Shown one piece after another: positions 6,401 through 64,000 of a stretch of 64,000 bases of DNA (the stretch's first letter is position 1; the number at the start of each line of letters is the position of its first letter). The stretch is taken from assembly GCA_964016885.1 (NCBI GenBank), contig OZ024740.1, positions 406,596,001 to 406,660,000 on the forward strand. The letters are read 5' to 3'. Position numbers and translations under genes: made by a program. The DNA is from Eledone cirrhosa (Eukaryota). The notes below the pieces were generated by a model. The model did not search any database, was not told the DNA's origin, and saw only the letters and a list, made by a program, of their open reading frames with translations.

Positions 6401-6745
6401 GTCATTAGCTAGTAGTCATTTAGGATTCCGTCATTAGTTAGTAGTCATTGTGGATTCCGTCATTAATTAGTAGTCTTTGTGGACTCCGTTATTAGTAAGT
6501 AGTCATTAGCTAGTAGTCATTGTGGATTCCGTCATTAGTTAGTAGTCATTGTGGATTCCGTTATTAGTTAGTAGTCGTTGTGCATTCCGTTATTAGTTAG
6601 TAGTCGTAGTGGATTCCGTCATTAACTAGTAGTCATTGTGGATTGCGTTATTAGTTAGTAGTCATTAGCTAGTAGTCATTGTGGATTCCGTTATTAGTTA
6701 GTAGTCATTGTAGATTCCGTTAATAGTTAGTAGTCATTAGCTAGT
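3420..6745. repeat. Near-perfect tandem duplication, period 1657 bp
   Basis: Markers TAACCA 3575/5232, GGACTCC 4824/6481 and GTTAATAG 5062/6719 are all offset by 1657. Confidence 0.9.
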
Positions 6746-26200: not shown

Positions 26201-26290
26201 GATTCCGTTATTAGCTAGTAGTCATTGTGGATTCCGTGATTCGCTAGTAGACATTGTGGATTCCGTTATTAGTTAGTAGTCATTGTGGAT
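8300..26290. repeat. Large higher-order duplication: about 8300-16200 repeated at about 16400-26290, with a nested about 1.8-kb duplication in the second copy
   Basis: TATAGATTCC 8321/16422; TCTTAG 9241/17400/19131; TGGGTAATTA 11111/21001; CATACGTAGG 14056/24148; TGAATTCC 15761/25853. Confidence 0.87.
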
Positions 26291-41200: not shown

Positions 41201-44200
41201 AGTAGTCATTGTGGATTCCGTTATTAGTTAGTAGTCATTAGCTAGTAGTCATTGTGGATTCCGTTATTAGCTAGTAGTCATTGTGGATTCCGTCATTCGC
41301 TAGTAGACATTGTGGATTCCGTTATTAGTTAGTAGTCATTGTGGATTCCGTCATTAGTTAGTAGACATTGTGGATTCCGTTATTAGTTAGTAGTCATTGT
41401 GGATTCCGTCATTCGCTAGTAGACATTGTGGATTCCGTTATTAGTTAGTAGTCATTGTGGATTCCGTCATTAGTTAGTAGACATTGTGGATTCCGTTATT
41501 AGTTAGTAGTCATTGTGGATTCCGTTATTAGTTAGTAGTCATTGTTGATTCCGTTATTAGTTAGTAATCATTCGCTAGAAGTCATTGTGGATTCCATGAT
41601 TCGCTAGTAGTCATGGAGGATTCCGTTATTAGTTAGTAGTCATTGTGGATTTCATTATTAGTTAATAGTCATTAGTTAGTAGTCATTGTGGATTCCGTAA
41701 TTAGCTAGTAGTCATTGTGGATTTAATTATTAGTTAGTAGTCATTAGTTAGTAGTCATTGTGGATTCCGTCATTAGTCAGTAGTCCTTGTGGATTCCGTC
41801 ATAAGTTAGTAGTCATTGTTGATTCCGTTATTAGTTAGTAATCATTCGCTAGAAGTCATTGTGGATTCCATGATTCGCTAGTAGTCATGGAGGATTCCGT
41901 TATTAGTTAGTAGTCATTGTGGATTTCATTATTAGTTAATAGTCATTAGTTAGTAGTCTTTGTGGATTCTGTCATTAGTTAGTAGTCATTGTGCATTTGG
42001 TCATAAGTTAGTAGTCATTAGCTAGTAGTCATTAGCTAGTAGTCATTGTGGTTACCTCATTCGCTGGTAGTCATTGTGGATTCCGTTATTAGTTAGTAGT
42101 CATTGTGGATTCCGTCATTAGCTAGTAGTCATTGGCGATTCCCTTATTAGTTAGTAGTCATTGTGGATTCAGTTATTAGTTAGTAGTCATTGTGGATTCC
42201 GTTATTAGTTAGTAGTCATTGTGGATTCCGTCATTAGCTAGTAGTCATTGTGGATTCCGTCATTAGCTAGTAGTCATTGTGGATTCAGTTATCAGTTAAT
42301 AGTCATTAGCATGTAGTCATTGTGGAATTCATTATTAGTTATTAGTCATTAGCTAGTAGTCATTGTGGATTCCCTCATTAGTTAATAGTCATTGTGGATT
42401 CCGTTATTAGTTAGTAGTCATTAGCTAGTAGTCATTGTGGATTTCATTATTAGTTAGTAGTCATTAGTTAGTAGTCTTTGTGGATTCCGTCATTAGTTAG
42501 TAGTCATTGTGGATTCCGTCATTAGTTAGTAGTCATTAGCTAGTAGTCATTAGCTAGTAGTCATTGTGGATTCCGTCATTCGCTAGTAGACATTGTGGAT
42601 TCCGTTATTAGTTAGTAGTCATTGTGGATTCCGTCATTAGCTAGTAGTCATTGTGGATTCCGTTATTAGTTAGTAGTCATTAGCTAGTAGTCATTGTGGA
42701 TTCCGTTATTAGCTAGTAGTCATTGTGGATTCCGTCATTCGCTAGTAGACATTGTGGATTCCGTTATTAGTTAGTAGTCATTGTGGATTCCGTCATTAGT
42801 TAGTAGACATTGTGGATTCCGTTATTAGTTAGTAGTCATTGTGGATTCCGTCATTCGCTAGTAGACATTGTGGATTCCGTTATTAGTTAGTAGTCATTGT
42901 GGATTCCGTCATTAGTTAGTAGACATTGTGGATTCCGTTATTAGTTAGTAGTCATTGTGGATTCCGTTATTAGTTAGTAGTCATTGTTGATTCCGTTATT
43001 AGTTAGTAATCATTCGCTAGAAGTCATTGTGGATTCCATGATTCGCTAGTAGTCATGGAGGATTCCGTTATTAGTTAGTAGTCATTGTGGATTTCATTAT
43101 TAGTTAATAGTCATTAGTTAGTAGTCATTGTGGATTCCGTCATTAGCTAGTAGTCATTGTGGATTTAATTATTAGTTAGTAGTCATTAGTTAGTAGTCAT
43201 TGTGGATTCCGTCATTAGTCAGTAGTCCTTGTGGATTCCGTCATAAGTTAGTAGTCATTGTTGATTCCGTTATTAGTTAGTAATCATTCGCTAGAAGTCA
43301 TTGTGGATTCCATGATTCGCTAGTAGTCATGGAGGATTCCGTTATTAGTTAGTAGTCATTGTGGATTTCATTATTAGTTAATAGTCATTAGTTAGTAGTC
43401 TTTGTGGATTCTGTCATTAGTTAGTAGTCATTGTGCATTTGGTCATAAGTTAGTAGTCATTAGCTAGTAGTCATTGTGGTTACCTCATTCGCTAGTAGTC
43501 ATTGTGGATTCCGTTATTAGTTAGTAGTCATTGTGGATTCCGTCATTAGCTAGTAGTCATTGGCGATTCCCTTATTAGTTAGTAGTCATTGTGGATTCAG
43601 TTATTAGTTAGTAGTCATTGTGGATTCCGTTATTAGTTAGTAGTCATTGTGGATTCCGTCATTAGCTAGTAGTCATTGTGGATTCCGTCATTAGCTAGTA
43701 GTCATTGTGGATTCAGTTATCAGTTAATAGTCATTAGCATGTAGTCATTGTGGAATTCATTATTAGTTATTAGTCATTAGCTAGTAGTCATTGTGGATTC
43801 CCTCATTAGTTAATAGTCATTGTGGATTCCGTTATTAGTTAGTAGTCATTAGCTAGTAGTCATTGTGGATTTCATTATTAGTTAGTAGTCATTAGTTAGT
43901 AGTCTTTGTGGATTCCGTCATTAGTTAGTAGTCATTGTGGATTCCGTCATTAGTTAGTAGTCATTAGCTAGTAGTCATTAGCTAGTAGTCATTGTGGATT
44001 CCGTCATTCGCTAGTAGACATTGTGGATTCCGTTATTAGTTAGTAGTCATTGTGGATTCCGTCATTAGCTAGTAGTCATTGTGGATTCCGTTATTAGTTA
44101 GTAGTCATTAGCTAGTAGTCATTGTGGATTCCGTTATTAGCTAGTAGTCATTGTGGATTCCGTCATTCGCTAGTAGACATTGTGGATTCCGTTATTAGTT

Positions 44201-44950
44201 AGTAGTCATTGTGGATTCCGTCATTAGTTAGTAGACATTGTGGATTCCGTTATTAGTTAGTAGTCATTGTGGATTCCGTTATTAGTTAGTAGTCATTGTT
44301 GATTCCGTTATTAGTTAGTAATCATTCGCTAGAAGTCATTGTGGATTCCATGATTCGCTAGTAGTCATGGAGGATTCCGTTATTAGTTAGTAGTCATTGT
44401 GGATTTCATTATTAGTTAATAGTCATTAGTTAGTAGTCATTGTGGATTCCGTCATTAGCTAGTAGTCATTGTGGATTTAATTATTAGTTAGTAGTCATTA
44501 GTTAGTAGTCATTGTGGATTCCGTCATTAGTCAGTAGTCCTTGTGGATTCCGTCATAAGTTAGTAGTCATTGTTGATTCCGTTATTAGTTAGTAATCATT
44601 CGCTAGAAGTCATTGTGGATTCCATGATTCGCTAGTAGTCATGGAGGATTCCGTTATTAGTTAGTAGTCATTGTGGATTTCATTATTAGTTAATAGTCAT
44701 TAGTTAGTAGTCTTTGTGGATTCTGACATTAGTTAGTAGTCATTGTGCATTTGGTCATAAGTTAGTAGTCATTAGCTAGTAGTCATTAGCTAGTAGTCAT
44801 TGTGGTTACCTCATTCGCTAGTAGTCATTGTGGATTCCGTTATTAGTTAGTAGTCATTGTGGATTCCGTAATAAGCTAGTAGTCATTGGCGATTCCCTTA
44901 TTAGTTAGTAGTCATTGTGGATTCAGTTATTAGTTAGTAGTCATTGTGGA
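38280..44950. repeat. Higher-order repeat of about 1.4 kb, about 5 copies
   Basis: Marker TAGCATGTAG at 38341, 39466, 40865, 42307 and 43735 (spacing 1125, 1399, 1442, 1428). Confidence 0.88.
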
Positions 44951-46959
44951 TTCCGTTATTAGTTAGTAGTCATTGTGGATTCCGTCATTAGCTAGTAGTC
45001 ATTGTGGATTCCGTATTTAGTTAGTAGTCATAAGCTAGTAGTCATTGTGGATTCCGTCATTGGCTAGTAGTCATTGTGGATTCCGTTATTAGTTAGTAGT
45101 CAATGTGGATTCCGTCATTCGTTAGCAGTCATTGTGGATTCCATTATTAGTTAGTAGTCATTGTGGATTCCGTCATTCGCTAGTAGACATTGTGGATTCC
45201 GTCATTAGTTAGTAGTGATTGTGGATTCCCTCATCAGTTAGTAGTCATTGTGCATTCCGTTATTAGTTAGTAGTCATTGTGGATTCCGTTATTAGTTAGT
45301 AGTCATTAGCTAGTAGTCATTGTAGATTCCGTTATTAGTTAGTAGTCATTAGCTAGTAGTCATTGTGGATTCCGTCATTAGTTAGTAGTGATTGTGGATT
45401 CCGTCATTACCTAGTAGTCATTGTGAATTCCGTCATTAGCTAGTAGTCATTGTGGATTCCCTCATTAGTTAGTAGTCATTGTGGAATCCGTTATTAGTTA
45501 GTAGTCATTAGCTAGTAGTCATTGTGGATTCCGTCATTAGTTAATAGTCATTGTGGATTCCGTTATTAGTTAGTAGTCATTAGCTAGTAGTCATTGTGGA
45601 TTTCATTATTAGTTAGTAGTCATTAGTTAGTAGTCATTGTGGATTCCGTTATTAGTTAGTAGTCATTGTGGATTCCGTTATTAGTTAGTAGTCATTTTAG
45701 ATTACCTTATTAGTTAGTGGTCATTGTGGATTCCGTTATTAGTTAGTAGTCGTTGTGGATTCCGTTATCAGTTAGTAGTCGTAGTGGATTTCGTCATTAG
45801 CTAGTAGTCATTGTGGATTCCGTTATTAGTTACTAGTCATTAGCTAGTAGTCATTGTGGATTCCGTTATTAGTTAGTAGTCATTGTGGATTCCGTTATTA
45901 GATAGTAGTCATTAGCTAGTAGTCATTTAGGATTCCGTCATTCGCTAGTAGTCATTGTGGATTCCGTCATTAGTTAGTTGTCATTGTGGAGTACGTTATT
46001 AGTTAGTAGTCATTAACTAGTAGTCATTGTGGATTTCGTCATTCGCTAGTAGTCAATATGGATTCCATTATTAGTTAGTAGTCATTGTGGATTCCCTTAT
46101 TAGTTAGTAGTCATTGTGGATTCCGTTATTAGTCAGTAGTCATTAACAAGTAGTCATTGTAGATTCCGTCATTAGCTAGTAGTCATTATGGATTTAATTA
46201 TTAGTTAGTAGTCATTAGCTAGTGGTCATTGTGGATTCCGTCATTAGTTAGTAGTCATTGTGGATTCCGTCATTAGCTAGTAGTCATTGGCGATTCCGTT
46301 ATTAGTTAGTAGTCATTGTGGATTCCGTTATTAGTTAGTAGTCATTGTGGATTCCGTTATTAGTTAGTAGCCATTGTGGATTCCGTTATTAGTTAGTAGT
46401 CATTAGCTAGTAGTGACTGTGGATTCCGTTATTAGTTAGTAGTCATTAGCTAGTAGTCATTTCGGATTCCGTCATTAGTTAGTAGTCATTGTGGATTCCC
46501 TTATTAGTTACTAGTCATTAGCTACTAGTCATTCTGGATTTAATTATTAGTTATTAGTCATTAGCTAGTAGTCATTGCGGATTCCCTCATTAGTTAATAG
46601 TCATTGTGGATTCCGTCATTAGTTAGTAGTCATTGTGGATTCCGTCATTTGTTAGTAGTCATTAGCTAGTAGTCATTGTGGATTCCGTCATTAGCTAGTA
46701 GTCATTGTGGATTCCGTTATTAGTTAGTAGTGATTAGCTAGTAGTCATTGTTGATTTCCGTCCTTAGCTAGTAGTCATTGTGGATTCCGTTATTCGTTAG
46801 TAGTCATTAGCTAGTAGTCATTGTGGATTCCGTCATTCGCTAACAGTCATTGAGGATTCCGTCATTAGTTAGTAGTCATTGTGGATTCCGACATTAGGTA
46901 GTAGTCATTGTGGATTCCGTTATTAGTTAGTAGTCATTAGCTAGTAGTCATTAGCTAGT

Positions 46960-49900
46960 AGTCATTGTGGATTCCGTCATTCGCTAATAGTCATTGAGGA
47001 TTCCGTCATTAGTTAGTAATCATTGTGGATTCCGTCATTAATTAGTAGTCATTGTGGATTCCGTTATTAGTTAGTAGTCATTGTGGATTCCCTCATTAGT
47101 TAGTAGTCATTGTGCATTCAGTTATTAGTTAGGAGTCATTAGTTAGTAGTCATTGTGGATTCCGTTATTAGTTAGTAGTCTTTGTGGATTCCGTTATTAG
47201 TCGGTAGTCATTGTAGATTCCGTTATTAGTTAGTAGTCATTAGCTAGTAGTCATTGTGGATTCCATCATTAGTTAGTAGTCATTGTGGATTCCGTTATTA
47301 GTTAGTAGTCATTGTCGATTCCGTTATTAGTTAGTAGCCATTGTGGATTCGGTTAATAGTTAGTAATCATTAGCTAGTAGTCGTTGTGGATTCCGTTATT
47401 AGTTAGTAGTCATTAGCTAGAAGTCATTGTGGAGTTCATTATTAGTTAGTAGTCATTGGCTAGTAGTCATTGTGGATTTCGTTATTAGTTAGTAGTCATT
47501 AGCTATTAGTCATTGTGGATTTCATTATTAGTTAGTAGTCATTAGCTAGTAGTCATTGTGGATTCCCTCATTAGTTAGTTGTCATTGTGGAATCCGTTAT
47601 TAGTTAGTAATCATTAGCTAGTAGTCATTGTGGATTCCGTCATTAGTTAGTAGTCATTGTGGATTCCGTTATTAGTTAGTAGTCATTAGCTAGTAGTCAT
47701 TGTGGCTTCCGTTATTAGTTCGTAGTCATTGTGGATTCCGTTATTAGTTAGTAGTCATTTTAGATTCCCTTATTAGTTAGTGGTCATTGTGGATTCTGTT
47801 ATTAGTTAGTAGTCGTTGTGGATTCCGTTATTAGTTAGTAGTCGTAGTGGATTCCGTCATTAGCTAGTAGTCATTGTGGATTCCGTTATTAGTTACTAGT
47901 CATTGTGGATTCCGTTATTAGTTAGTAGTTATTTAGGATTCCGTCATTAGCTAGTAGTCATTGTGGATTCCGTCATTAGTTAGTAGTCATTGTGGAGTCC
48001 GTTATTAGTTAGTAGTCATTAACTAGTAGTCATTGTGGATTCCGTCATTCGCTAGTAGGCATTATGGATTCCATTATTAGTTAGAAGTCATTAGCTAGTG
48101 GTCATTGTGGATTCCGTCATTAGTTAGTAGTCATTGGGGATTCCGTTATTAGTTAGTAGTCATTAACAAGTAGTTATTGTAGATTCCGTCATTAGCTAGT
48201 AGTCATTGTGGATTTAATTATTAGTTAGTAGTCATTAGCTAGTAGTCATTGTGGATTCTTTCATTAGTTAGTAGTTATTGTGGAATCCGTTATTAGTTAG
48301 TAGTCATTAGCTAGTAGTCATTGTGGATTCCGTCATTAGTTAGTAGTCATTAGTTAGTAGTCATTGTGGATTCCGTTATTAGTTAGTAGTCATTGTGGAT
48401 TCCGTTCTTACTTAGTAGTCATTTTAGATTCCCTTATTAGTTAGTAGTCATTGTGGATTCCGTCATTAGTTAATAGTCATTGTGTATCCGTCATTAGTTA
48501 GTTGTCATTAGCTAGTCGTCATTGTGGCTTCCATCATTAGTTAGTAGTCATTGTGGATTCCGTTATTAGTTAGTAGTCATTAACTAGTAGTCATTGTAGA
48601 TTCCGTCATTAGTTAGTAGTCATTGTGGATTCCGTCATCAGTTAGTAGTCATTGTGGATTCCGTTATTAGTTAGTAGTCATTGGGGATTCCGTCATTAGC
48701 TAGTAGTCATTGTGGATTCCATCATTCGCTAGTAGTCATGGAGGATTCCGTTATTTGTTAGTAGTTATTGTGGATTTCATTATTAGTTAGTAGTCATGAG
48801 TTAGTAGTCTTTGTGGATTCTGTCATTAGTTAGTAGTCATTGTGCATTCCGTCATTAGTTAGTAGTCATTAGCTAGTAGTCATTAGCTAGTAGTCATTGT
48901 GGATTACGTCATTCGCTAGTAGTCATTGTGGATTCCGTTATTAGTTAGTAGTCATTGTGGATTCCGTCATTAGCTAGTAGTCATTGGCGATTCCGTTATT
49001 AGTTAGTAGTCATTGTGGATTCCATCATTCGCTAGTAGTCATGGAGGATTCCGTTATTTGTTAGTAGTTATTGTGGATTTCATTATTAGTTAGTAGTCAT
49101 TAGTTAGTAGTCTTTGTGGATTCTGTCATTAGTTAGTAGTCATTGTGCATTCCGTCATTAGTTAGTAGTCATTAGCTAGTAGTCATTAGCTAGTAGTCAT
49201 TGTGGATTCCGTCATTCGTTAGGAGTCATTGTGGATTCAGTTATTAGTTAGCAGTCATTGTGGATTCCGTTATTAGTTAGTAGCCATTGTGGATTCCGTT
49301 ATTTGATAGTAGTCATTAGCTATTAGTCACTGTGGATTCCGTTATTAGTTAGTACTCATGAGCTAGTACTCATTTTGGATTCCGTCATTAGTTACTAGTC
49401 ATTGTGGATTCCGTTAATAGTTAGTAGTCATTAGCTAGTAGTCATTGTGGATTCCGTCATTACCTAGTAGTCATTGTGGATTCCGTCATTACCTAGTAGT
49501 CATTGTGGATTCCGTTATTAGCTAGTAGTCATTGTGGATTCAGTTATTAGTTAGTAGTGATTAGCTAGTAGTCATTGTGGATTTCATTATTAGTTAGTAG
49601 TCATTAGCTAGTAGTCATTGTGGATTCCCTACTTAGTTAGTAGTCATTGTGGATTCCATTATTAGTTAGTAGTCATCAGTTGGTAGCCTTTGTGGATTTC
49701 ATTATTAGTTAGTAGACATTAGTTGGTAGTCTTTGTGGATTCCGTCATTAGTTAGTAGTCATTGTGGATTCCATCATTAGTTAGTAGTCATTAGCTAGTA
49801 GTCATTAGCTAGTAGTCATTGTGGATTCCATCATTCGCTAGTAGACATTGTGGATTCCGTTATTAGTTAGTAGTCATTGTGCATTCCGTCATTAGCTAGT

Positions 49901-52900
49901 AGTTATTGTGGATTCAGTTATTAGTTAGTAGTCATAAGCTAGTAGTCATTGTGGATTTCATAATTAGTTAGTAGTCATTAGCTACTACTCATTGTGGATT
50001 CCCTCATTAGTTAGTAGTCATTGTGGAATCCGTTATTAGTTAGTAGTCATTAGCTAGTAGTCATTGTGGATTCCGTCATTAGTTAGAAGTCATTGTGGAT
50101 TCCGTTATTAGTTAGTAGTCACTAGCTAGTAGTCATTGTGGATTTCATTATTAGTTAGTAGTCATTAGTTAGTAGTCATTGTGGATTCCGTTATTAGTTA
50201 GTAGTCGTAGTGGATTCCGTCATTAGCTAGTAGTCATTGTGGATTCCGTTATTAGATACTAGTCATTAGCTAGTAGTCATTGTGGATTCCGTTATTAGTT
50301 AGTAGTCATTGTGGATTCCGTTATTAGTTAGTAGTCATTGTGAAGTACGTTATTAGTTAGTAGTCATTAACTAGTAGTCATTGTGGATTTCGTCATTCGC
50401 TAGTAGTCAATATGGATTCCATTATTAGTTAGTAGTCATTTGGGATCCCATTATTAGTTAGTAGTCATTGTGGATTCCGTTATTAGTTAATAGTCATTAA
50501 CTACCAGTCATTGTGGATCCGTCATTAGTTAGTAGTCATTGTGGATTCCGTTATTAGTTAGTAGTCATTGTGGATTCCGTTATTAGTTAGTAGTCATTAA
50601 CAAGTAGTCATTGTAGATTCCGTCATTAGCTAGTAGTCATTGTGGATTCTTTCATTAGTTAGTAGTCATTGTGGAATCCGTTATTAGTTAGTAGTCATTA
50701 GCTAGTAGTCATTGTGGATTCCGTCATTAGTTAGTAGTCATTAGTTAGTAGTCATTGTGGATTCCGTTATTAGTTAGTAGTCATTGTGGATTCCTTTCTT
50801 ACTTAGTAGTCATTTTAGATTCCCTTATTAGTTAGTAGTCATTGTCGATTCCGTCATTAGTTAATAGTCATTGTGGATCCGTCATTAGTTAGTAGTCATT
50901 AGCTAGTCGTCATTGTGGCTTCCATCATTAGTTAGTAGTTATTGTGGATTTCATTATTAGTTAATAGTCATTAGTTAGTAGTCTTTGTGGATTCTGTCAT
51001 TAGTTAGTAGTCCTTGTGCATTCCGTCATTAGTTAGTAGTCATTAGCTAGTAGTCATTAGCTAGTAGTCATTGTGGATTCCGTCATTCGCTAATAGTCAT
51101 TGAGGATTCCGTCATTAGTTAGTAATCATTGTGGATTCCGTCATTAATTAGTAGTCATTGTGGATTCCGTTATTAGTTAGTAGTCATTGTGGATTCCGTC
51201 ATTAGCTAGTAGTCATTGAGGATTCCCTCATTAGTTAGTAGACATTGTGGATTCCGTTATTAGTTAGGAGTCGTGGTGGATTCCGTTGTTAGTTAGTAGT
51301 CTTAGTGGATTCCGCCATTAACTAGTAGTCATTGTGGATTCCGTTATTAGTTAGTAGTCATTAGTTAGTAGTCATTGTGGATTCCGTTATTAGTTAGTAG
51401 TCATTGTGGATTCCGTTATTAGTCGGTAGTCATTGTAGATTCCGTTATTAGTTAGTAGTCATTAGCTAGTAGTCATTGTGGATTCCATCATTAGTTAGTA
51501 GTCATTGTGGCTTCCGTTATTAGTTAGTAGTCATTGTGGATTCCGTTATTAGTTAGTAGCCATTGTGGATTCCGTTAATAGTTAGTAATCATTAGCTAGT
51601 AGTCGTTGTGGATTCCGTTATTAGTTAGTAGTCATTAGCTAGAAGTCATTGTGGAGTTCATTATTAGTTAGTAGTCATTAGCTAGTAGTCATTGTGGATT
51701 TCATTATTAGTTAGTAGTCATTAGCTATTAGTCATTGTGGATTTCATTATTAGTTAGTAGTCATTAGCTAGTAGTCATTGTGGATTCCCTCATTAGTTAG
51801 TTGTCATTGTGGAATCCGTTATTAGTTAGTAATCATTAGCTAGTAGTCATTGTGGATTCCGTCATTAGTTAGTAGTCATTGTGGATTCCGTTATTAGTTA
51901 GTAGTCATTAGCTAGTAGTCATTGTGGCTTCCGTTATTAGTTCGTAGTCATTGTGGATTCCGTTATTAGTTAGTAGTCATTTTAGATTCCCTTATTAGTT
52001 AGTGGTCATTGTGGATTCTGTTATTAGTTAGTAGTCGTTGTGGATTCCGTTATTAGTTAGTAGTCGTAGTGGATTCCGTCATTAGCTAGTAGTCATTGTG
52101 GATTCCGTTATTAGTTACTAGTCATTGTGGAATCCGTTATTAGTTAGTAGTTATTTAGGATTCCGTCATTAGCTAGTAGTCATTGTGGATTCCGTCATTA
52201 GTTAGTAGTCATTGTGGAGTCCGTTATTAGTTAGTAGTCATTAACTAGTAGTCATTGTGGATTCCGTCATTCGCTAGTAGGCATTATGGATTCCATTATT
52301 AGTTAGAAGTCATTAGCTAGTGGTCATTGTGGATTCCGTCATTAGTTAGTAGTCATTGTGGATTCCGTTATTAGTTAGTAGTCATTAACAAGTAGTTATT
52401 GTAGATTCCGTCATTAGCTAGTAGTCATTGTGGATTTAATTATTAGTTAGTAGTCATTAGCTAGTAGTCATTGTGGATTCTTTCATTAGTTAGTAGTTAT
52501 TGTGGAATCCGTTATTAGTTAGTAGTCATTAGCTAGTAGTCATTGTGGATTCCGTCATTAGTTAGTAGTCATTAGTTAGTAGTCATTAGTTAGTTGTCAT
52601 TGTGGATTCCGTTATTAGTTAGTAGTCATTGTGGATTCCGTTCTTACTTAGTAGTCATTTTAGATTCCCTTATTAGTTAGTAGTCATTGTGGATTCCGTC
52701 ATTAGTTAATAGTCATTGTGTATCCGTCATTAGTTAGTTGTCATTAGCTAGTCGTCATTGTGGCTTCCATCATTAGTTAGTAGTCATTGTGGATTCCGTT
52801 ATTAGTTAGTAGTCATTAACTAGTAGTCATTGTAGATTCCGTCATTAGTTAGTAGTCATTGTGGATTCCGTCATCAGTTAGTAGTCATTGTGGATTCCCT

Positions 52901-55900
52901 TATTAGTTAGTAGTCATTGGGGATTCCGTCATTAGCTAGTAGTCATTGTGGATTCCATCATTCGCTAGTAGTCATGGAGGATTCCGTTATTTGTTAGTAG
53001 TTATTGTGGATTTCATTATTAGTTAGTAGTCATTAGTTAGTAGTCTTTGTGGATTCTGTCATTAGTTAGTAGTCATTGTGCATTCCGTCATTAGTTAGTA
53101 GTCATTAGCTAGTAGTCATTGTGGCTTCCGTTATTAGTTCGTAGTCATTGTGGATTCCGTTATTAGTTAGTAGTCATTTTAGATTCCCTTATTAGTTAGT
53201 GGTCATTGTGGATTCTGTTATTAGTTAGTAGTCGTTGTGGATTCCGTTATTAGTTAGTAGTCGTAGTGGATTCCGTCATTAGCTAGTAGTCATTGTGGAT
53301 TCCGTTATTAGTTACTAGTCATTGTGGATTCCGTTATTAGTTAGTAGTTATTTAGGATTCCGTCATTAGCTAGTAGTCATTGTGGATTCCGTCATTAGTT
53401 AGTAGTCATTGTGGAGTCCGTTATTAGTTAGTAGTCATTAACTAGTAGTCATTGTGGATTCCGTCATTCGCTAGTAGGCATTATGGATTCCATTATTAGT
53501 TAGAAGTCATTAGCTAGTGGTCATTGTGGATTCCGTCATTAGTTAGTAGTCATTGTGGATTCCGTTATTAGTTAGTAGTCATTAACAAGTAGTTATTGTA
53601 GATTCCGTCATTAGCTAGTAGTCATTGTGGATTTAATTATTAGTTAGTAGTCATTAGCTAGTAGTCATTGTGGATTCTTTCATTAGTTAGTAGTTATTGT
53701 GGAATCCGTTATTAGTTAGTAGTCATTGTGGATTCCGTCATTAGTTAGTAGTCATTAGTTAGTAGTCATTGTGGATTCCGTTATTAGTTAGTAGTCATTG
53801 TGGATTCCGTTCTTACTTAGTAGTCATTTCAGATTCCCTTATTAGTTAGTAGTCATTGTGGATTCCGTCATTAGTTAATAGTCATTGTGTATCCGTCATT
53901 AGTTAGTTGTCATTAGCTAGTCGTCATTGTGGCTTCCATCATTAGTTAGTAGTCATTGTGGATTCCGTTATTAGTTAGTAGTCATTAACTAGTAGTCATT
54001 GTAGATTCCGTCATTAGTTAGTAGTCATTGTGGATTCCGTCATCAGTTAGTAGTCATTGTGGATTCCGTTATTAGTTAGTAGTCATTGGGGATTCCGTCA
54101 TTAGCTAGTAGTCATTGTGGATTCCATCATTCGCTAGTAGTCATGGAGGATTCCGTTATTTGTTAGTAGTTATTGTGGATTTCATTATTAGTTAGTAGTC
54201 ATTAGTTAGTAGTCATTAGCTAGTAGTCATTGTGGATTCCGTCATTCGTTAGGAGTCATTGTGGATTCCGTTATTAGTTAGCAGTCATTGTGGATTCCGT
54301 TATTAGTTAGTAGCCATTGTGGATTCCGTTATTTGATAGTAGTCATTAGCTATTAGTCACTGTGGATTCCGTTATTAGTTAGTACTCATGAGCTAGTACT
54401 CATTTTGGATTCCGTCATTAGTTACTAGTCATTGTGGATTCCGTTAATAGTTAGTAGTCATTAGCTAGTAGTCATTGTGGATTCCGTCATTACCTAGTAG
54501 TCATTGTGGATTCCGTCATTACCTAGTAGTCATTGTGGATTCCGTTATTAGCTAGTAGTCATTGTGGATTCAGTTATTAGTTAGTAGTCATTAGCTAGTA
54601 GTCATTGTGGATTTCATTATTAGTTAGTAGTCATTAGCTAGTAGTCATTGTGGATTCCCTACTTAGTTAGTAGTCATTGTGGATTCCATTATTAGTTAGT
54701 AGTCATCAGTTGGTAGCCTTTGTGGATTTCATTATTAGTTAGTAGACATTAGTTGGTAGTCTTTGTGGATTCCGTCATTAGTTAGTAGTCATTGTGGATT
54801 CCGTCATTAGTTAGTAGTCATTAGCTAGTAGTCATTAGCTAGTAGTCATTGTGGATTCCATCATTCGCTAGTAGACATTGTGGATTCCGTTATTAGTTAG
54901 TAGTCATTGTGCATTCCGTCATTAGCTAGTAGTTATTGTGGATTCAGTTATTAGTTAGTAGTCATAAGCTAGTAGTCATTGTGGATTTCATTATTAGTTA
55001 GTAGTCATTAGCTAGTAGTCATTGTGGATTCCCTCATTAGTTAGTAGTCATTGTGGAATCCGTTATTAGTTAGTAGTCATTAGCTAGTAGTCATTGTGGA
55101 TTCCGTCATTAGTTAGAAGTCATTGTGGATTCCGTTATTAGTTAGTAGTCATTAGCTAGTAGTCATTGTGGATTTCATTATTAGTTAGTAGTCATTAGTT
55201 AGTAGTCATTGTGGATTCCGTTATTAATTAGTAGTCATTGTGGATTCCGTTATTAGTTACTAGTCATTAGCTCGTAGTCATTGTGGATTCCGTTATTAGT
55301 TAGTAGTCATTGTGGATTCCGTTATTAGTTAGTAGTCATTGTGAAGTACGTTATTAGTTAGTAGTCATTAACTAGTAGTCATTGTGGATTTCGTCATTCG
55401 CTAGTAGTCAATATGGATTCCATTATTGGTTAGTAGTCATTTGGGATCCCATTATTAGTTAGTAGTCATTGTGGATTCCGTTATTAGTTAATAGTCATTA
55501 ACTACCAGTCATTGTGGATCCGTCATTAGTTAGTAGTCATTGTGGATTCCGTTATTAGTTAGTAGTCATTGTGGATTCCGTTATTAGTTAGTAGTCATTA
55601 ACAAGTAGTCATTGTAGATTCCGTCATTAGCTAGTAGTCATTGTGGATTCTTTCATCAGTTAGTAGTCATTGTGGAATCCGTTATTAGTTAGTAGTCATT
55701 AGCTAGTAGTCATTGTGGATTCCGTCATTAGTTAGTAGTCATTAGTTAGTAGTCATTGTGGATTCCGTTATTAGTTAGTAGTCATTGTGGATTCCGTTCT
55801 TACTTAGTAGTCATTTTAGATTCCCTTATTAGTTAGTAGTCATTGTGGATTCCGTCATTAGTTAATAGTCATTGTTGATCCGTCATTAGTTAGTAGTCAT

Positions 55901-56050
55901 TAGCTAGTCGTCATTGTGGCTTCCATCATTAGTTAGTAGTTATTGTGGATTTCATTATTAGTTAATAGTCATTAGTTAGTAGTCTTTGTGGATTCTGTCA
56001 TTAGTTAGTAGTCCTTGTGCATTCCGTCATTAGCTAGTAGTCATTAGCTA
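46960..56050. repeat. Higher-order duplication of about 4.2 kb with a nested 1197-bp duplication
   Basis: TCGGTAG 47201/51423 and GCTAGTAGGC 48051/52273 (offset 4222); third GCTAGTAGGC at 53470 (+1197); TGAAGTACG 50341/55342. Confidence 0.8.
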
Positions 56051-58545
56051 GTAGTCATTGTGGATTACGTCATTCGCTAGTAGTCATTGTGGATTCCGTT
56101 ATTAGTTAGTAGTCATTGTGTATTCCGTCATTAGCTAGTAGTCATTGGCGATTCCGTTATTTGTTAGTAGTCATTGTGGATTCCGTCATTCGTTAGGAGT
56201 CATTGTGTATTCCGTTATTAGTTAGCAGTCATTGTGGATTCCGTTATTAGTTCGTAGCCATTGTGCATTCCGTTATTTGATAGTAGTCATTAGCTATTAG
56301 TCACTGTGGATTCCGTTATTAGTTAGTACTCATGAGCTAGTAGTCATTTTGGATTCCGTCATTAGTTACTAGTCATTGTAGATTCCGTTATTAGTTAGTA
56401 GTCATTAGCTAGTAGTCATTGTGGATTCCGTCATTACCTAGTAGTCATTGTGGATTCCGTCATTACCTAGTAGTCATTGTGGATTCCGTTATTAGCTAGT
56501 AGTCATTGTGGATTCAGTTATTAGTTAGTAGTCATTAGCTAGTAGTCATTGTGGATTTCATTATTAGTTAGTAGTCATTAGCTAGTAGTCATTGTGGATT
56601 CCCTCCTTAGTTAGTAGTCATTGTGGATTCCATTATTAGTTAGTAGTCATCAGTTGGTAGCCTTTGTGGATTTCATTATTAGTTAGTAGACATTAGGTGA
56701 TAGACTTTGTGGATTCCGTCATTAGTTAGTAGTCATTGTGGATTCCGTCATTAGTTAGTAGTCATTAGCTAGTAGTCATTAGCTAGTAGTCATTGTGGAT
56801 TCCATCATTCGCTAGTAGACATTGTGGATTCCGTTATTAGTTAGTAGTCATTGTGCATTCCGTCATTAGCTAGTAGTTATTGTGGATTCAGTTATTAGTT
56901 AGTAGTCATAAGCTAGTAGTCATTGTGGATTTCATTATTAGTTAGTAGTCATTAGCTAGTAGTCATTGTGGATTCCCTCATTAGTTAGTAGTCATTGTGG
57001 AATCCGTTATTAGTTAGTAGTCATTAGCTAGTAGTCATTGTGGATTCCGTCATTAGTTAGTAGTCATTGTGGATTCCGTTATTAGTTAGTAGTCATTAGC
57101 TAGTAGTCATTGTGGATTTCATTATTGGTTAGTAGTCATTAGTTAGTAGTCATTGTGGATTCCGTTATTAGTTAGTAGTCGTAGTGGATTCCGTCATTAG
57201 CTAGTAGTCATTGTGGATTCCGTTATTAGTTACTAGTCATTAGCTAGTAGTCATTGTGGATTCCGTTATTAGTTAGTAGTCATTGTGGATTCCGTTATTA
57301 GTTAGTAGTCATTGTGGATTCCGTTATTAGTTAGTAGTCATTAGCTAGTAGTCATTTAGGATTCCGTCATTCGCTAGTAGTCATTGTGGATTCCGTCATT
57401 AGTTAGTAGTCATTGTGGAGTACGTTATTAGTTAGTAGTCATTAACTAGTAGTCATTGTGGATTTCGTCATTGGCTAGTAGTCAATATGGATTCCATTAT
57501 TAGTTAGTAGTCATTTGGAATCCCATTATTAGTTAGTAGTCATTGTGAATTCCGTTATTAGTTAATAGTCATTAACTACCAGTCATTGTGGATCCGTCAT
57601 TAGTTAGTAGTCATTGTGGATTCCGTTATTAGTTAGTAGTCATTGTGGATTCCGTTATTAGTTAGTAGTCATTAACAAGTAGTCATTGTAGATTCCGTCA
57701 TTAAATAGTAGTCATTGTGGATTTAATTATTAGTTAGTAGTCATTAGCTAGTGGTCATTGTGGATTCCGTCATTAGTTAGTTGTCAATGTGGATTCCGTC
57801 ATTAGCTAGTAGTCCTTGGCGATTCCGTTATTAGTTAGTAGTCATTGTGGATTCCGTTATTAGTTAGTAGTCATTAGCTAGTAGTCACTGTGGATTCCGT
57901 TATTAGTTAGTAGTCATTAGCTAGTAGTCATTTAGGATTCCGTCATTAGTTAGTAGTCTTTGTGGATTCCGTTATTAGTTAGTAGTCTATAGCTAGTAGT
58001 CATTTTGGATTTCATTATTAGTTATTAGTCATTAGCTAGTAGTCATTGTGGATTCCCTCATTAGTTAATAGTCATTGTGGATTCCGTTATTAGTTAGTAG
58101 TCATTAGCTAGTAGTCATTTAGGATTCCGTCATTAGTTAGTAGTCATTGTGGATTCCCTTGTTAGTTAGTAGTCATTAGCTAGTAGTCATTTTGGATTTC
58201 ATTATTAGTTATTAGTCATTAGCTAGTAGTCATTGTGGATTCTCTCATTAGTTAATATTCATCGTGGATTTCATTATTAGTTATTAGTCATTAGTTAGTA
58301 GTCTTTGTGGATTCCGTCATTTGTAAGTAGTCATTAGCTAGTAGTCATTGTGGATTCCGCCATTCGCTAGTAGTCATTGTGGATTCCGTTATTAGTTAGT
58401 AGTCATTAGTTAGTAGTCATTGTGGATTTCATTATTAGTTAGTAGTGATTAGCTAGTAGTCATTGTGGATTCCCACCTTAGTTAGTAGTCATTGTGGATT
58501 CCATTATTAGTTAGTAGTCATCAGTTGGTAGCCTTTGTGGATTTC

Positions 58546-58560
58546 ATTATTAGTTAGTAG
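58546..58560 (+). repeat. Left target-site duplication ATTATTAGTTAGTAG
   Basis: Identical to 58744-58758. Empty paralogous sites (e.g. 61077-61091) carry only one copy between ...GCCTTTGTGGATTTC and ACATTAGTTGGTAG. Confidence 0.92.
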
Positions 58561-58570
58561 GGCGGTGGAT

Positions 58571-58582
58571 TGGCAGTATCGG
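58571..58582 (+). promoter_or_regulatory. RNA polymerase III type-2 internal promoter A box
   Basis: TGGCAGTATCGG at +11 from the element start; imperfect match to the TRGCNNARYNGG-type A-box consensus. Confidence 0.7.
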
Positions 58583-58633
58583 TAGAGGGTCGGACGCCAT
58601 GCTTTCCAGCATAGTTACGTCCCTTTACCATCT

Positions 58634-58645
58634 GAGTTCAAATCC
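58634..58645 (+). promoter_or_regulatory. RNA polymerase III type-2 internal promoter B box
   Basis: GAGTTCAAATCC contains the GTTCRANNC B-box consensus, about 50 bp downstream of the A box. Confidence 0.85.
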
Positions 58646-58743
58646 CGCCGAGGTTGACTTTGCCTTTCATCCTTACGGGGTCGATAAAATAAAGTACCAG
58701 TAATGCACTGGTAATTGCTGGCCTTGTGCCTAAAATAGAAACA

Positions 58744-58758
58744 ATTATTAGTTAGTAG
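58744..58758 (+). repeat. Right target-site duplication ATTATTAGTTAGTAG
   Basis: Identical to 58546-58560; followed by ACATTAGTTGGTAG as in the empty sites. Confidence 0.92.
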
Positions 58759-61700
58759 ACATTAGTTGGTAGTCTTTGTGGATTCCGTCATTAGTTAGTA
58801 GTCATTGTGGATTCCGTCATTAGTTAGTAGTCATTGGCGATTCCGTTATTAGTTAGTAGTCATTGTGGATTCCGTCATTCGTTAGTAGTCATTGTGGATT
58901 CCGTTATTAGTTAGCAGTCATTGTGGATTCCGTTATTAGTTAGTAGCCATTGTGGATTCCGTTATTAGATAGTAGTCATTAGCTATTAGTCACTGTGGAT
59001 TCCGTTATTAGTTAGTACTCATGAGCTAGTAGTCATTTTGGATTCCGTCATTAGTTACTAGTCATTGTGGATTCCGTTATTAGTTAGTAGTCATTAGCTA
59101 GTAGTCATTGTGGATTCCGTCATTACCTAGTAGTCATTGTGGATTCCGTCATTACCTAGTAGTCATTGTGGATTCCGTTATTAGCTAGTAGTCATTGTGG
59201 ATTCAGTTATTAGTTAGTAGTCATTAGCTAGTAGTCATTGTGGATTTCATTATTAGTTAGTAGTCATTAGCTAGTAGTCATTGTGGATTCCCTCCTTAGT
59301 TAGTAGTCATTGTGGATTCCATTATTAGTTAGTAGTCATCAGTTGGTAGCCTTTGTGGATTTCATTATTAGTTAGTAGACATTAGTTGGTAGTCTTTGTG
59401 AATTCCGTCATTAGTTAGTAGTCATTGTGGATTCCGTCATTATTTAGTAGTCATTAGCTAGTAGTCATTAGCTAGTAGTCATTGTGGATTCCATCATTCG
59501 CTAGCAGACATTGTGGATTCCGTTATTAGTTACTAGTCATTAGCTAGAAGTCATTGTGGATTCCGTTATTAGTTAGTAGTCATTGTGGATTCCGTTATTA
59601 GTTAGTAGTCATTGTGGATTCCGTTATTAGTTAGTAGTCATTAGCTAGTAGTCATTTAGGATTCCGTCATTCGCTAGTAGTCATTGTGGATTCCGTTATT
59701 AGTTACTAGTCATTAGCTAGAAGTCATTGTGGATTCCGTTATTAGTTAGTAGTCATTGTGGATTCCGTTATTAGTTAGTAGTCATTGTGGATTCCGTTAT
59801 TAGTTAGTAGTCATTAGCTAGAAGTCATTGTGGATTCCGTTATTAGTTAGTAGTCATTGTGGATTCCGTTATTAGTTAGTAGTCATTGTGGATTCCGTTA
59901 TTAGTTAGTAGTCATTAGCTAGTAGTCATTTAGGATTCCGTCATTCGCTAGTAGTCATTGTGGATTCCGTCATTAGTTAGTAGTCATTGTGGAGTACGTT
60001 ATTAGTTAGTAGTCATTAACTAGTAGTCATTGTGGATTTCGTCATTCGCTAGTAGTCAATATGGATTCCATTATTAGTTAGTAGTCATTGTGGATTCCGT
60101 TATTAGTTAATAGTCATTAACTACCAGTCATTGTGGATCCGTCATTAGTTAGTAGTCATTGTGGATTCCGTTATTAGTTAGTAGTCATTGTGGATTCCGT
60201 TATCAGTTAGTGGTCATTAACAAGTAGTCATTGTAGATTCCGTCATTAAATAGTAGTCATTGTGGATTTAATTATTAGTTAGTAGTCATTAGCTAGTGGT
60301 CATTGTGGATTCCGTCATTAGTTAGTTGTCAATGTGGATTCCGTCATTAGCTAGTAGTCCTTGGCGATTCCGTATTTAATTAGTAGTCATTGTGGATTCC
60401 GTTATTAGTTAGTAGTCATTGTGGATTACGTTATTAGTTAGTAGCCATTGTGGATTCCGTTATTAGTTAGTAGTCATTAGCTAGTAGTCACTGTGGATTC
60501 CGTTATTAGTTAGTAGTCATTAGCTAGTAGTCATTTAGGATTCCGTCATTAGTTAGTAGTCTTTGTGGATTCCGTTATTAGTTAGTAGTCTATAGCTAGT
60601 AGTCATTTTGGATTTCATTATTAGTTATTAGTCAATAGCTAGTAGTCATTGTGGATTCCCTCATTAGTTAATAGTCATTGTGGATTCCGTTATTAGTTAG
60701 TAGTCATTAGCTAGTAGTCATTTAGTATTCCGTCATTAGTTAGTAGTCATTGTGGATTCCCTTGTTAGTTAGTAGTCATTAGCTAGTAGTCATTTTGGAT
60801 TTCCTTATCAGTTATTAGTCATTAGCTAGTAGTCATTGTGGATTCCCTCATTAGTTAATATTCATCGTGGATTTCATTATTAGTTAGTAGTCATTAGTTA
60901 GTAGTCTTTGTGGATTCCGTCATTAGTTAGTAGTCATTAGCTAGTAGTCATTGTGGATTCCGCCATTCGCTAGTAGTCATTGTGGATTCCGTTATTAGTT
61001 AGTAGTCATTAGCTAGTAGTCATTGTGGATTTCATTATTAGTTAGTAGTCATCAGTTGGTAGCCTTTGTGGATTTCATTATTAGTTAGTAGACATTAGTT
61101 GGTAGTCTTTGTGGATTCCGTCATTAGTTAGTAGTCATTGTGGATTCCGTCATTAGTTAGTAGTCATTGGCGATTCCGTTATTAGTTAGTAGTCATTGTG
61201 GATTCCGTCATTCGTTAGTAGTCATTGTGGATTCCGTTATTAGTTAGCAGTCAATGTGGATTCCGTTATTAGTTAGTAGCCATTGTGGATTCCGTTATTA
61301 GATAGTAGTCATTAGCTATTAGTCACTGTGGATTCCGTTATTAGTTAGTACTCATGAGCTAGTAGTCATTTTGGATTCCGTCATTAGTTACTAGTCATTG
61401 TGGATTCCGTTATTAGTTAGTAGTCATTAGCTAGTAGTCATTGTGGATTCCGTCATTACCTAGTAGTCATTGTGGATTCCGTCATTACCTAGTAGTCATT
61501 GTGGATTCCGTTATTACCTAGTAGTCATTGTGGATTCAGTTATTAGTTAGTAGTCATTAGCTAGTAGTCATTGTGGATTTCATTATTAGTTAGTAGTGAT
61601 TAGCTAGTAGTCATTGTGGATTCCCTCCTTAGTTAGTAGTCATTGTGGATTCCATTATTAGTTAGTAGTTATTAGCTAGTAGTCATTGTGGATTCCGTCA

Positions 61701-64000
61701 TTAGTTAGTAGTCATTGTGGATTCCGTTATTAGTTAGTAGTCATTAGCTAGTAGTCATTGTGGATTTCATTATTAGTTAGTAGTCATTAGTTAGTAGTCA
61801 TCAGTTGGTAGCCTTCGTGGATTTCATTATTAGTTAGTAGACATTAGTTGGTAGTCTTTGTGGATTCCGTCATTAGTTAGTAGTCATTGTGGATTCCGTC
61901 ATTCGCTAGCAGACATTGTGGATTCCGTTATTAGTTAGTAGTCATTGTGCAGTCCGTCATTAGCTAGTAGTTATTGTGGATTCAGTTATTAGTTAGTAGT
62001 CATAAGCTAGTAGTCATTAGCTAGTAGTCATTGTGGATTCCATCATTCGCTAGCAGACATTGTGGATTCCGTTATTAGTTAGTAGTCATTAGCTAGTAGT
62101 CATTGTGGATTTCATTATTAGTTAGTAGTCATTAGCTAGTAGTCATTGTGGATTCCCTCATTAGTTAGTAGTCATTGTGGAATCCGTTATTAGTTAGTAG
62201 TCATTAGCTAGTAGTCATTGTGGATTCCGTCATTAGTTAGTAGTCATTGTGGATTCCGTTATTAGTTAGTAGTCATTAGCTAGTAGTCATTGTGGATTCC
62301 GTCATTAGTTAGTAGTCATTGTGGATTCCGTTATTAGTTAGTAGTCATTAGCTAGTAGTCATTGTGGCTTTCATTATTAGTTAGTAGTCATTAGTTAGTA
62401 ATCATTGTGGATTCCGTTATTAGTTAGTAGTCATTGTGGATTCCCTTATTAGTTAGTAGTCATTTTTAGATTACCTTATTAGTTAGTGGTCATTGTGGAT
62501 TCCGTTATTAGTTAGTAGTCGTTGTGGATTCCGTTATTAGTTAGTAGTCGTAGTGGATTCCGTCATTAGCTAGTAGTCATTGTGGATTCCGTTATTAGTT
62601 AGTAGTCATTAGCTAGTAGTCATTTAGGATTCCGTCATTCGCTAGTAGTCGTTTTGGATTCCGTCATTAGTTAGTAGTCATTGTGGAGTACGTTATTAGT
62701 TAGTAGTCATTGTGGATTCCGTTATTAGTTAATAGTCATTAACTACCAGTCATTGTGGATCCGTCATTAGTTAGTAGTCATTGTGGATTCCGTTATTAGT
62801 TAGTAGTCATTGTGGATTCCGTTATTAGTTAGTAGTCATTAACAAGTAGTCATTGTAGATTCCGTCATTAGCTAGTAGTCATTGTGGATTTAATTATTAG
62901 TTAGTAGTCATTAGCTAGTGGTCATTGTGGATTCCGTCATTAGTTAGTTGTCAATGTGGATTCCGTCATTAGCTAGTAGTCCTTGGCGATTCCGTTATCA
63001 GTTAGTAGTCATTGTGGATTCCGTTATTAGTTAGTAGTCATTGTGGATTCCGTTATTAGTTAGTAGCCATTGTGGATTCCGTTATTAGTTAGTAGTCATT
63101 AGCTAGTAGTCACTGTGGATTCCGTTATTAGTTAGTAGTCATTAGCTAGTAGTCATTTAGGATTCCGTCATTAGTTAGTAGTCTTTGTGGATTCCGTTAT
63201 TAGTTAGTAGTCTATAGCTAGTAGTCATTTTGGATTTCATTATTAGTTATTAGTCATTAGCTAGTAGTCATTGTGGATTCCCTCATTAGTTATTAGTCAT
63301 TGTGGATTCCGTTATTAGTTAGTAGTCATTAGCTAGTAGTCATTTAGGATTCCGTCATTAGTTAGTAGTCATTGTGGATTCCGTCATTAGTTAGTAGTCA
63401 TTAGCTAGTAATCATTGTGGATTCCGCCATTCGCTAGTAGTCATTGTGGATTCCGTTATTAGTTAGTAGTCATTAGCTAGTAGTCATTGTGGATTCCGTC
63501 ATTAGCTAGTAGTCATTGTGGATTCCGTTATTAGTTAGTAGTCATTAGCTAGTAGTCATTGTGGATTCCGTCATTCGCTAATAGTCATTGAGGATTCCGT
63601 CATTAGTTAGTAGTCATTGTGGATTCCGACATTAGTTAGTAGTCATTGTGGATTCCGTTATTAGTTAGTAGTCATTGTGGATTCCGTCATTAGCTAGTAG
63701 TCATTGTGGATTCCGTTATTAGTTAGTAGTCATTAGCTAGTAGTCATTGTGGATTCCGTCATTCGCTAATAGTCGTTGAGGATTCCGTCATTAGTTAGTA
63801 GTCATTGTGGATTCCGTCATTAGTTAGTAGTCATTGTGGATTCCGTTATTAGTTAGTAGTCATTGTGGATTCCGTCATTAGCTAGTAGTCATTGTGGATT
63901 CAGTTATTATTTAGTAGTCATTAGCTAGTAGTCATTGTGGATTCCGTTATTAGTTAGTAGTCTTTGTGGATTCCGTTATTAGTTAGTAGTCATTGTGGAT
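58744..64000. repeat. Tandem satellite array, right arm (same family and orientation); runs off the right window edge
   Basis: The same A/B/C blocks resume in register immediately after the insertion (ATTATTAGTTAGTAGACATTAGTTGGTAG...). Confidence 0.99.

What the first reader, a model, noticed from the sequence alone, without database searches (positions are those of the whole stretch)
58546..58758. Single SINE insertion with a perfect 15-bp TSD and six empty paralogous sites in the same array
Seen: a 183-bp island flanked by ATTATTAGTTAGTAG on both sides. The distinctive context CATCAGTTGGTAGCCTT(T/C)GTGGATTTC-[15-mer]-ACATTAG occurs uninterrupted at 49701, 54731, 56675, 59364, 61077 and 61826, so the pre-insertion allele can be read directly. 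Established: a TSD of this length, an A-rich 3' end and A/B boxes are hallmarks of LINE-mediated target-primed retrotransposition of tRNA SINEs. Inference: the sister 2.6-kb unit (61077-61091, same downstream context to GGCGATTCC) is empty, so the insertion postdates the latest local duplication. It may be very recent or polymorphic, and it is a unique anchor and clock within the satellite.
Basis: partly seen in the sequence, partly recalled or inferred. Interest (0 to 1): 0.72.

Follow-up and report, generated by a model that had tools for sequence, protein, structure and literature searches.

The report
Young SINE duplicated inside a satellite
A short mobile element, likely pasted in recently by a LINE enzyme, sits in a satellite DNA array between two identical 15-base flanks and appears twice, likely because the array itself duplicated a 9.9-kb block; this is an ordinary event.

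Summary
The sequence description is exact: a 183-bp insert (58,561-58,743), identical 15-mers on both sides and six empty sites in the window. It is a full-length copy of a young SINE subfamily with 394 genome matches; 41 of 63 dispersed chromosome-1 copies are identical. Site, strand and duplication length follow the subfamily rule: C/T then ATTAT(T), median duplication 14 bp. The tail is (ATT)n, not poly(A), and both ends of the 15-mer overlap the element's own ends.

The dating inference fails. A second copy with identical junctions lies 9,896 bp downstream, just outside the window. It sits in a tandem duplication with 1 mismatch in 9,893 bp. The proposed sister unit is about 2% diverged. 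So the insertion predates the latest duplication and is not a unique anchor, unless the second copy is an assembly artefact (about 20%; reads could not settle it).

The two copies are the only foreign DNA in a single-locus 160-kb array, where about 12 family copies are expected. No partner LINE was found. Verdict: ordinary mechanism, tidy example, low interest.

The parts
58546..58560 (+). Left copy of the 15-bp duplicated target. Its last 2 bases (AG) also match the family's own 5' start, so this boundary is ambiguous by 2 bp.
   Evidence: AG precedes the body in 29 of 42 full-length subfamily copies, often outside their duplication.
58561..58743 (+). SINE body, 183 bp, full length. One difference (G to A at element position 175, window 58,735) from the commonest subfamily sequence.
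   Evidence: The A variant is in 5 of 394 subfamily matches, 2 of them the array copies.
58571..58582 (+). Degenerate Pol III A box in a tRNA-like head.
   Evidence: strict pattern not met; aligns to the D-arm region of tRNA-model hits from this genome.
58636..58644 (+). Pol III B box (GWTCRANNC type).
   Evidence: aligns to the T-arm of tRNA-model hits.
58695..58713 (+). Predicted 7-bp hairpin near the 3' end. In these short variants it lies where longer family members carry about 30 extra bases.
   Evidence: the fold of this 101-nt part is not significant, z -0.86; longer variants seen.
58744..58758 (+). Right copy of the 15-bp target. Its first 5-6 bases (ATTAT/T) also read as the element's (ATT)n tail.
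   Evidence: 58 of 63 copies continue with ATTAT.
49701..49715 (+). Empty paralogous site.
54731..54745 (+). Empty paralogous site.
56675..56689 (+). Empty paralogous site, inside the 9,896-bp duplicated block.
59364..59378 (+). Empty paralogous site, inside the duplicated block.
61077..61091 (+). Empty site of the proposed sister unit: 625 bp downstream match with 13 mismatches, only 83 bp upstream.
61826..61840 (+). Empty paralogous site, inside the duplicated block.
55761..64000 (+). In-window part of the first unit of a 9,896-bp tandem duplication. In extended coordinates the unit runs to 65,653 and the second unit is 65,657-75,549. One substitution at 61,953. The second unit, outside the window, holds the second filled site (68,442-68,654; body at G000:C1:406664457-406664639), 100% identical with the same junctions. 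The junction between units looks like a crossover in a short shared stretch plus a 100-bp loss.
1..64000 (+). Satellite of 14/15/29/43-bp subunits with kb-scale higher-order repeats. The whole array is about 159.7 kb (extended coordinates about -31,700 to 128,000), one orientation, single locus in the assembly.
   Evidence: The 29-mer unit has 377 matches genome-wide and 377 locally.

Best explanation
A full-length copy of a young SINE subfamily sits at a site that fits the subfamily's target rule; it was likely pasted once by target-primed reverse transcription with a borrowed LINE enzyme, and then likely copied by a real 9,896-bp tandem duplication of the satellite. SHOWN: anatomy, filled and empty alleles, subfamily size and homogeneity, the target rule (C/T, then ATTAT(T); duplication 8-20 bp), two identical filled sites, and the duplicated block. 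INFERRED steps: (1) Pol III transcribes a source copy. (2) A LINE endonuclease nicks the bottom strand at the C/T-ATTATT site. (3) The RNA's AUU-repeat tail pairs with the nicked strand and primes synthesis, which explains why tail and duplication overlap. (4) A second nick 13-15 bp away, with a 2-base AG match at the 5' end, completes integration. (5) Later unequal exchange or replication slippage in the array doubled the block. Order: about 2%-diverged paralogous units, then the insertion, then the 0.01%-diverged duplication. The LINE partner is unidentified.
For: Insert and empty alleles exact. 38 dispersed full-length copies at 99% among the 40 candidates scored of 1,185. 394 matches to two diagnostic motifs. 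Of all 63 non-array copies listed for contig 1, 41 are identical, 16 have one difference and 6 have two; mean 0.25%. A duplication of 8 bp or more in 50 of 63, median 14; in those 50, the base before it is C or T in 48 and positions 1-3 read TTA in all 50. The array offers this motif only on the + strand (481 versus 0), and the SINE is on +. The junction 27-mer occurs exactly twice genome-wide. Both copies carry the rare A175 (5 of 394). Block identity is 9,892 of 9,893. The array holds a graded series of other near-perfect adjacent duplications, 1.3-6 kb with 0-0.8% mismatches. The junction carries a feature that neither end has, a 100-bp skip. Tail-target overlap and repeat-guided priming are described for CR1, L2 and RTE clades (PMC6007223, sections 15-17). 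TE copies sharing one target duplication inside satellite arrays are read as one integration plus host copying (bioRxiv 10.64898/2026.09.17.752431, passages).
Against: No raw reads were laid across either junction or the duplication breakpoint, so a false duplication is not excluded. 13 of 63 subfamily copies showed no duplication of 8 bp or more by my exact-match test. No LINE among those sampled shares the SINE's 3' end. The head is not recognised as tRNA by ARAGORN or Rfam; its likeness to 16 tRNA-model hits is weak (z 1.1-4.5). A175 may be inherited from a minor source copy, so it dates nothing by itself.
Confidence: 0.77

Rival explanations
1. The insertion is real and single; the second copy is a false tandem duplication made by the assembler (or two haplotypes laid end to end). 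The first reader's 'single, unique anchor' would then be right in the genome though wrong for the assembly.
For: Only 1 substitution in 9,893 bp, and it is the longest near-perfect repeat in the array. Satellite arrays are error-prone to assemble (established knowledge).
Against: The junction is not a plain copy of either end: it skips 100 bp present after unit 2 and in a paralog at 101,927. Other near-perfect adjacent duplications of graded divergence occur along the array. Two unrelated haplotypes would be expected to differ by more than 0.01% (inference).
Confidence: 0.19
2. The SINE entered by double-strand-break repair or gene conversion from another copy, not by target-primed reverse transcription.
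For: Short matches at both junctions (AG and ATTAT) could be read as repair microhomology.
Against: The insert is exactly full length, carries no donor flank, has a duplication of the family's usual size, and sits at the family's C/T-ATTATT motif on the only strand that offers it.
Confidence: 0.03
3. The two filled sites are independent insertions into a hot target.
For: The target motif is abundant in the array: 481 sites.
Against: Identical junctions, the same rare A175 variant and 9.9 kb of near-identical flank; the other 15 of 17 paralogous sites are empty.
Confidence: 0.01

Closest known systems
tRNA-derived SINEs of octopus genomes (tRNA-CORE, tRNA-Deu and unclassified SINEs; the OR1/OR2 families of Ohshima and Okada 1994, which I saw only as citations)
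   Same: tRNA-like head with A and B boxes, short body, very high copy number (a 16-mer of the 3' end has 225,809 matches) and recent activity. O. vulgaris has 4,544 recently active SINE insertions (PMC13282606, passages). That the host is an octopod is my inference from recalled SINE sequence and the LINE set seen; no call named the organism.
   Different: I could not compare with OR1/OR2/OK consensus sequences (not in the papers reached), so the family name is not assigned.
SINEs and LINEs with microsatellite tails whose target duplication begins with the tail repeat (Nishiyama and Ohshima 2018, PMC6007223; abstract and sections 15-17 read)
   Same: The 3' repeat overlaps the first bases of the duplication; priming by base pairing is proposed.
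   Different: Here the overlap is 5-6 bases, against 1-2 reported for animals. Duplications are longer (median 14, 16 of 50 at 18-20 bp) than the at most 13 bp reported for most RTE-related animal elements. No clear T stretch at -10 in my 50 sites. No RTE-shared 3' end was found.
Transposons copied within satellite arrays with identical target duplications (bioRxiv 10.64898/2026.09.17.752431; passages seen)
   Same: One integration, then copying by host recombination: same strand, same duplication.
   Different: Their cases are Gypsy, LINE and retrovirus copies (5-11 copies) in centromeric arrays. This is a SINE at the two-copy stage in a 160-kb single-locus array not shown to be centromeric.
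Dong/R4-type LINEs that target TAA repeats (PMC3812793, PMC3774820; passages seen)
   Same: Preference for an AAT/ATT repeat target.
   Different: The one Dong/R4-like copy found here (L064; clade label from recalled motifs) ends in (AAT)n on its sense strand, the opposite polarity to the SINE's (ATT)n, and shares no 3' sequence.

Membership tests
tRNA-derived SINE | Short (under 500 bp), non-coding, dispersed in many copies | tested here: met
   183 bp; 394 subfamily matches; 225,809 matches to a 3' 16-mer
tRNA-derived SINE | Internal Pol III A and B boxes | tested here: met
   B box matches the recalled consensus; A box degenerate; spacing about 20 nt longer than in tRNA
tRNA-derived SINE | Head homologous to a specific tRNA | tested here: inconclusive
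   No ARAGORN or Rfam tRNA hit; weak alignment to 16 tRNA-model hits, z 1.1-4.5, mostly the boxes; only 16 hits sampled
tRNA-derived SINE | Variable-length target-site duplications and 5' truncations with a fixed 3' end | tested here: met
   50 of 63 with 8-20 bp duplications; 21 of 63 start after position 2; fixed 3' end
tRNA-derived SINE | Simple-repeat or A-rich tail | tested here: met
   (ATT)n tail, not poly(A): ATTAT follows in 58 of 63; long runs in L022, L064
tRNA-derived SINE | Pol III transcription | not testable with these tools
   No usable RNA data
Stringent LINE-partnered SINE | 3' end shared with a LINE of the same genome | tested here: inconclusive
   Not found in 30 RT loci (one CR1-like family), 20 endonuclease loci (several ended before a 3' end), 30 DUF6451 loci (part of the output was cut), 1 Dong/R4-like copy, 2 Tx1-like copies. 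The sample of LINE families is small.
CR1-like LINE as partner | Same insertion signature as the SINE | tested here: not met
   Same (ATT)n tail polarity, but 0 of 17 informative 5' junctions show an 8-20 bp ATTAT-starting duplication (1 of 18 rows had no flank, and some may not be true junctions)
MetaSINE | 66-bp Meta domain after the tRNA head | tested here: inconclusive
   No likeness by eye to bivalve Meta-SINE sequences in the supplement of PMC4824008; the domain consensus is in a figure not held; no alignment run
CORE-SINE | About 65-bp CORE domain | tested here: inconclusive
   Faint likeness by eye of the central part to the 3' CORE of BivaCORE-SINE2; no alignment run; the link is otherwise recalled
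Post-integration copying in a satellite array | Copies share both junctions, strand and extended flanks | tested here: met
Post-integration copying in a satellite array | Copies confirmed by spanning reads | not testable with these tools
   The four runs laid were short contigs only

The most novel reading that the evidence does not exclude
A very large, still active SINE family is moved by an uncharacterised LINE with a strict, strand-specific C/T-ATTATT target and long staggered cuts, without the usual shared 3' end. The twin copies then catch the first step of transposon amplification by a satellite that turns over so fast that it holds one young insertion where about 12 family copies are expected, giving a nested clock for array turnover.
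Probability: 0.2. Interest if true: 0.45.

Novelty: new member of a known kind. Interest (0 to 1): 0.2.

Why it matters
Locally it is a useful marker. It orders three events (older unit duplication, insertion, 9.9-kb duplication) and gives a simple read-based check of the assembly. The near-absence of SINEs in a target-rich array suggests that the array is young or renews itself quickly. The strict target rule measured on 63 copies is a fingerprint for finding the partner LINE. None of this changes what is known about SINE movement or satellite evolution.

Tried and rejected
(1) Reads. The look-up of sequencing runs listed 24 runs, all contigs; no RNA holder listed. Laying 4 of them showed the SINE at great depth in three, the satellite flanks in one (X1), and no piece spanning the stretch. 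X1 has no cover at 58,528-58,539; contigs cannot show absence, so this is not used for or against. Filled versus empty alleles and the duplication junction remain unchecked by reads.
(2) Partner LINE, none found: CR1-like families with 945- and 957-aa frames; DUF6451 RTE-like families, which end in GAAT- or CTGAGT-type repeats; a Dong/R4-like copy of opposite tail polarity; Tx1-like flank copies. Clade names are from recalled motifs; Pfam gave only RT, endonuclease and zinc-finger domains.
(3) tRNA identity: ARAGORN and Rfam blank; the SECIS_4 hit (E 1.5 and 0.51) is treated as chance.
(4) A175 as a private mutation: rejected as proof, since 3 other subfamily copies carry it and the 3' 38-mer with A occurs 1,580 times in the wider family.
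(5) Family name: paper searches for OK/OR1/OR2 and for an 11-base core motif gave nothing useful.
(6) Earlier scan findings: none by place or sequence.
(7) One search had a miscounted gap and its zero is void.

Full report
OBSERVATION. The window is one satellite of 14/15/29/43-bp subunits. The insert lies at 58,561-58,743 (183 bp), with identical 15-mers at 58,546-58,560 and 58,744-58,758. The 15-mer alone occurs 105 times in the window, so the case rests on filled versus empty alleles, and that comparison is exact.

THE ELEMENT. A search of the own genome (3.0 Gb; window = G000:C1:406596001-406660000) gave 1,185 candidates, of which 40 were scored: 2 copies at 100% and 38 at 99%. A 16-mer of the 3' end has 225,809 exact matches. 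Two diagnostic motifs define a subfamily of 394 matches.

I took all 63 non-array copies listed for contig 1 (two of them share flanks, so 62 are independent). Against one natural copy, 41 are identical, 16 differ at one site and 6 at two: 28 differences in 11,235 bases, 0.25% (95% range 0.17-0.36%). The search fixes 27 bases per copy, so the figure is biased low; leaving them out gives about 0.29% by hand. The window copy differs at one base, a variant found in 5 of the 394, two being the array copies.

The head has a B box, a degenerate A box and weak likeness to tRNA-model hits from this genome (z 1.1-4.5 over 16). ARAGORN and Rfam do not call it a tRNA. It is a young SINE with a tRNA-like head. 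The resemblance to octopus SINEs is recalled; no call named the host.

THE JUNCTIONS. ATTAT follows the body in 58 of 63 copies. A duplication of 8-20 bp (median 14) was found in 50 of 63. In those 50 the preceding base is C or T in 48. AG precedes the body in 29 of 42 full-length copies, often outside the duplication. So the tail is (ATT)n, not poly(A). The window's 15-mer overlaps the element's tail by 5-6 bases and its 5' start by 2. The duplicated length is 15, but the true stagger could be 13-15. The satellite offers the target motif 481 times on the + strand and never on the - strand, which accounts for the orientation. Overlap of tail and target, with priming by base pairing, is described for CR1, L2 and RTE clades (PMC6007223). 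The reverse-transcription steps here are inferred from that precedent.

NOT SINGLE. The second 100% hit lies 9,896 bp downstream, outside the window, with the same junctions. The left-junction 27-mer occurs exactly twice in the genome. Both copies lie in a tandem duplication, 55,761-65,653 versus 65,657-75,549, with 1 mismatch in 9,893 bp. Across the array, 17 sites carry the diagnostic context: 2 filled and 15 empty. The proposed sister at 61,077 matches 625 bp downstream with 13 mismatches and only 83 bp upstream. The closest two-sided empty relative is at 91,253, with 20 mismatches in 1,048 bp. So the order is: about 2% duplications, then the insertion, then the 0.01% duplication. For scale only, and assuming an octopod host and the calibration quoted in PMC13282606 (distance 0.09 = 25 My), the subfamily would be under about 1 My old and the duplication of the order of 10,000 years (wide range; arithmetic by hand).

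REAL OR ARTEFACT. For a real duplication: the junction skips 100 bp that follow unit 2 and a paralog, and the array shows a graded series of adjacent near-perfect duplications of 1.3-6 kb. Against: it is the longest and among the most perfect, and no reads could be laid across it. I give the artefact about 20%. Copies sharing one target duplication inside satellite arrays have been reported for Gypsy, LINE and retroviral elements (bioRxiv 10.64898/2026.09.17.752431).

THE ARRAY. It spans about 159.7 kb in one orientation. All 377 genome-wide matches of the 29-mer unit lie in it, so it is single-locus in this assembly. The two SINE copies are its only low-copy islands. At genome-average density, 12.0 matches of the 3' 16-mer are expected; 2 are seen, from 1 event (Poisson P about 8e-5, ignoring uneven density; the 104 kb of flank hold 5). 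Targets are not scarce: 3.0 per kb against 2.1 in the flanks. A young or fast-renewing array is the likely reason (inference).

PARTNER. No sampled LINE shares the 3' end. Young CR1-like families with many intact frames end in the same (ATT)n, but 0 of 17 informative junctions show the SINE's signature. One Dong/R4-like copy has the opposite tail polarity. The sample is small, so the partner is open.

PAPERS SEEN. PMC4824008: parts 1-3 of 6 and supplement parts 1, 3, 4 of 4; figures not held, so domain consensus sequences were not seen. PMC6007223: abstract, sections 15-17. PMC4758252, PMC13282606, PMC8967140, PMC3774820, PMC3812793 and the bioRxiv atlas: passages only; the preprint's supplements are closed and may list SINE cases. 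Ohshima and Okada 1994: not seen. I do not claim that this locus or family is absent from print.

VERDICT. New member of a known kind; interest 0.2.

Noticed in passing
extended window coordinates -18,308 to -6,282 (upstream of the window): A second large near-perfect tandem duplication in the same array: period 5,994 bp, 4 mismatches in 6,033 bp.
   Followed up: partly
extended coordinates 132,341-147,922 (L037-L039): A separate GC-rich (about 55%) tandem array of about 15.6 kb, about 4 kb beyond the end of the satellite; unit not determined.
   Followed up: no
extended coordinates about 155,080 onward (L040): A third short-unit tandem repeat begins directly after the 3' end of a Tx1-like LINE.
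   Followed up: no
extended coordinates 149,932-155,047 and -47,397 to -42,198: Two Tx1/L1-like LINE copies, 78% alike over 5.3 kb, in opposite orientation on either side of the array (clade label recalled).
   Followed up: partly
L071-L100, L113-L122: Two very young CR1-like LINE families with many uninterrupted 945-aa and 957-aa frames (endonuclease plus RT), mostly 97-99% alike within the first family, both ending in (ATT)n. Several host this SINE family.
   Followed up: partly
L027 and L028 (G000:C1:249.2 Mb and 247.9 Mb): Two subfamily copies with identical flanks in opposite orientation about 1.3 Mb apart: a segmental or false duplication.
   Followed up: no
L013, L024, L053, L060, L064, L067, L171: SINE copies often sit in the tail of another copy of the family or of a LINE, as the target rule predicts, which builds tandem clusters.
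   Followed up: partly
L220, L222 (G000:C1:243.65-243.68 Mb): Clusters of 5-7 tRNA-like genes, mostly called tRNA-Thr, within 3 kb.
   Followed up: no
L221, L223-L231: Near-identical tRNA-like sequences with varied anticodons at dispersed sites, probably another tRNA-derived repeat or pseudogene family.
   Followed up: no
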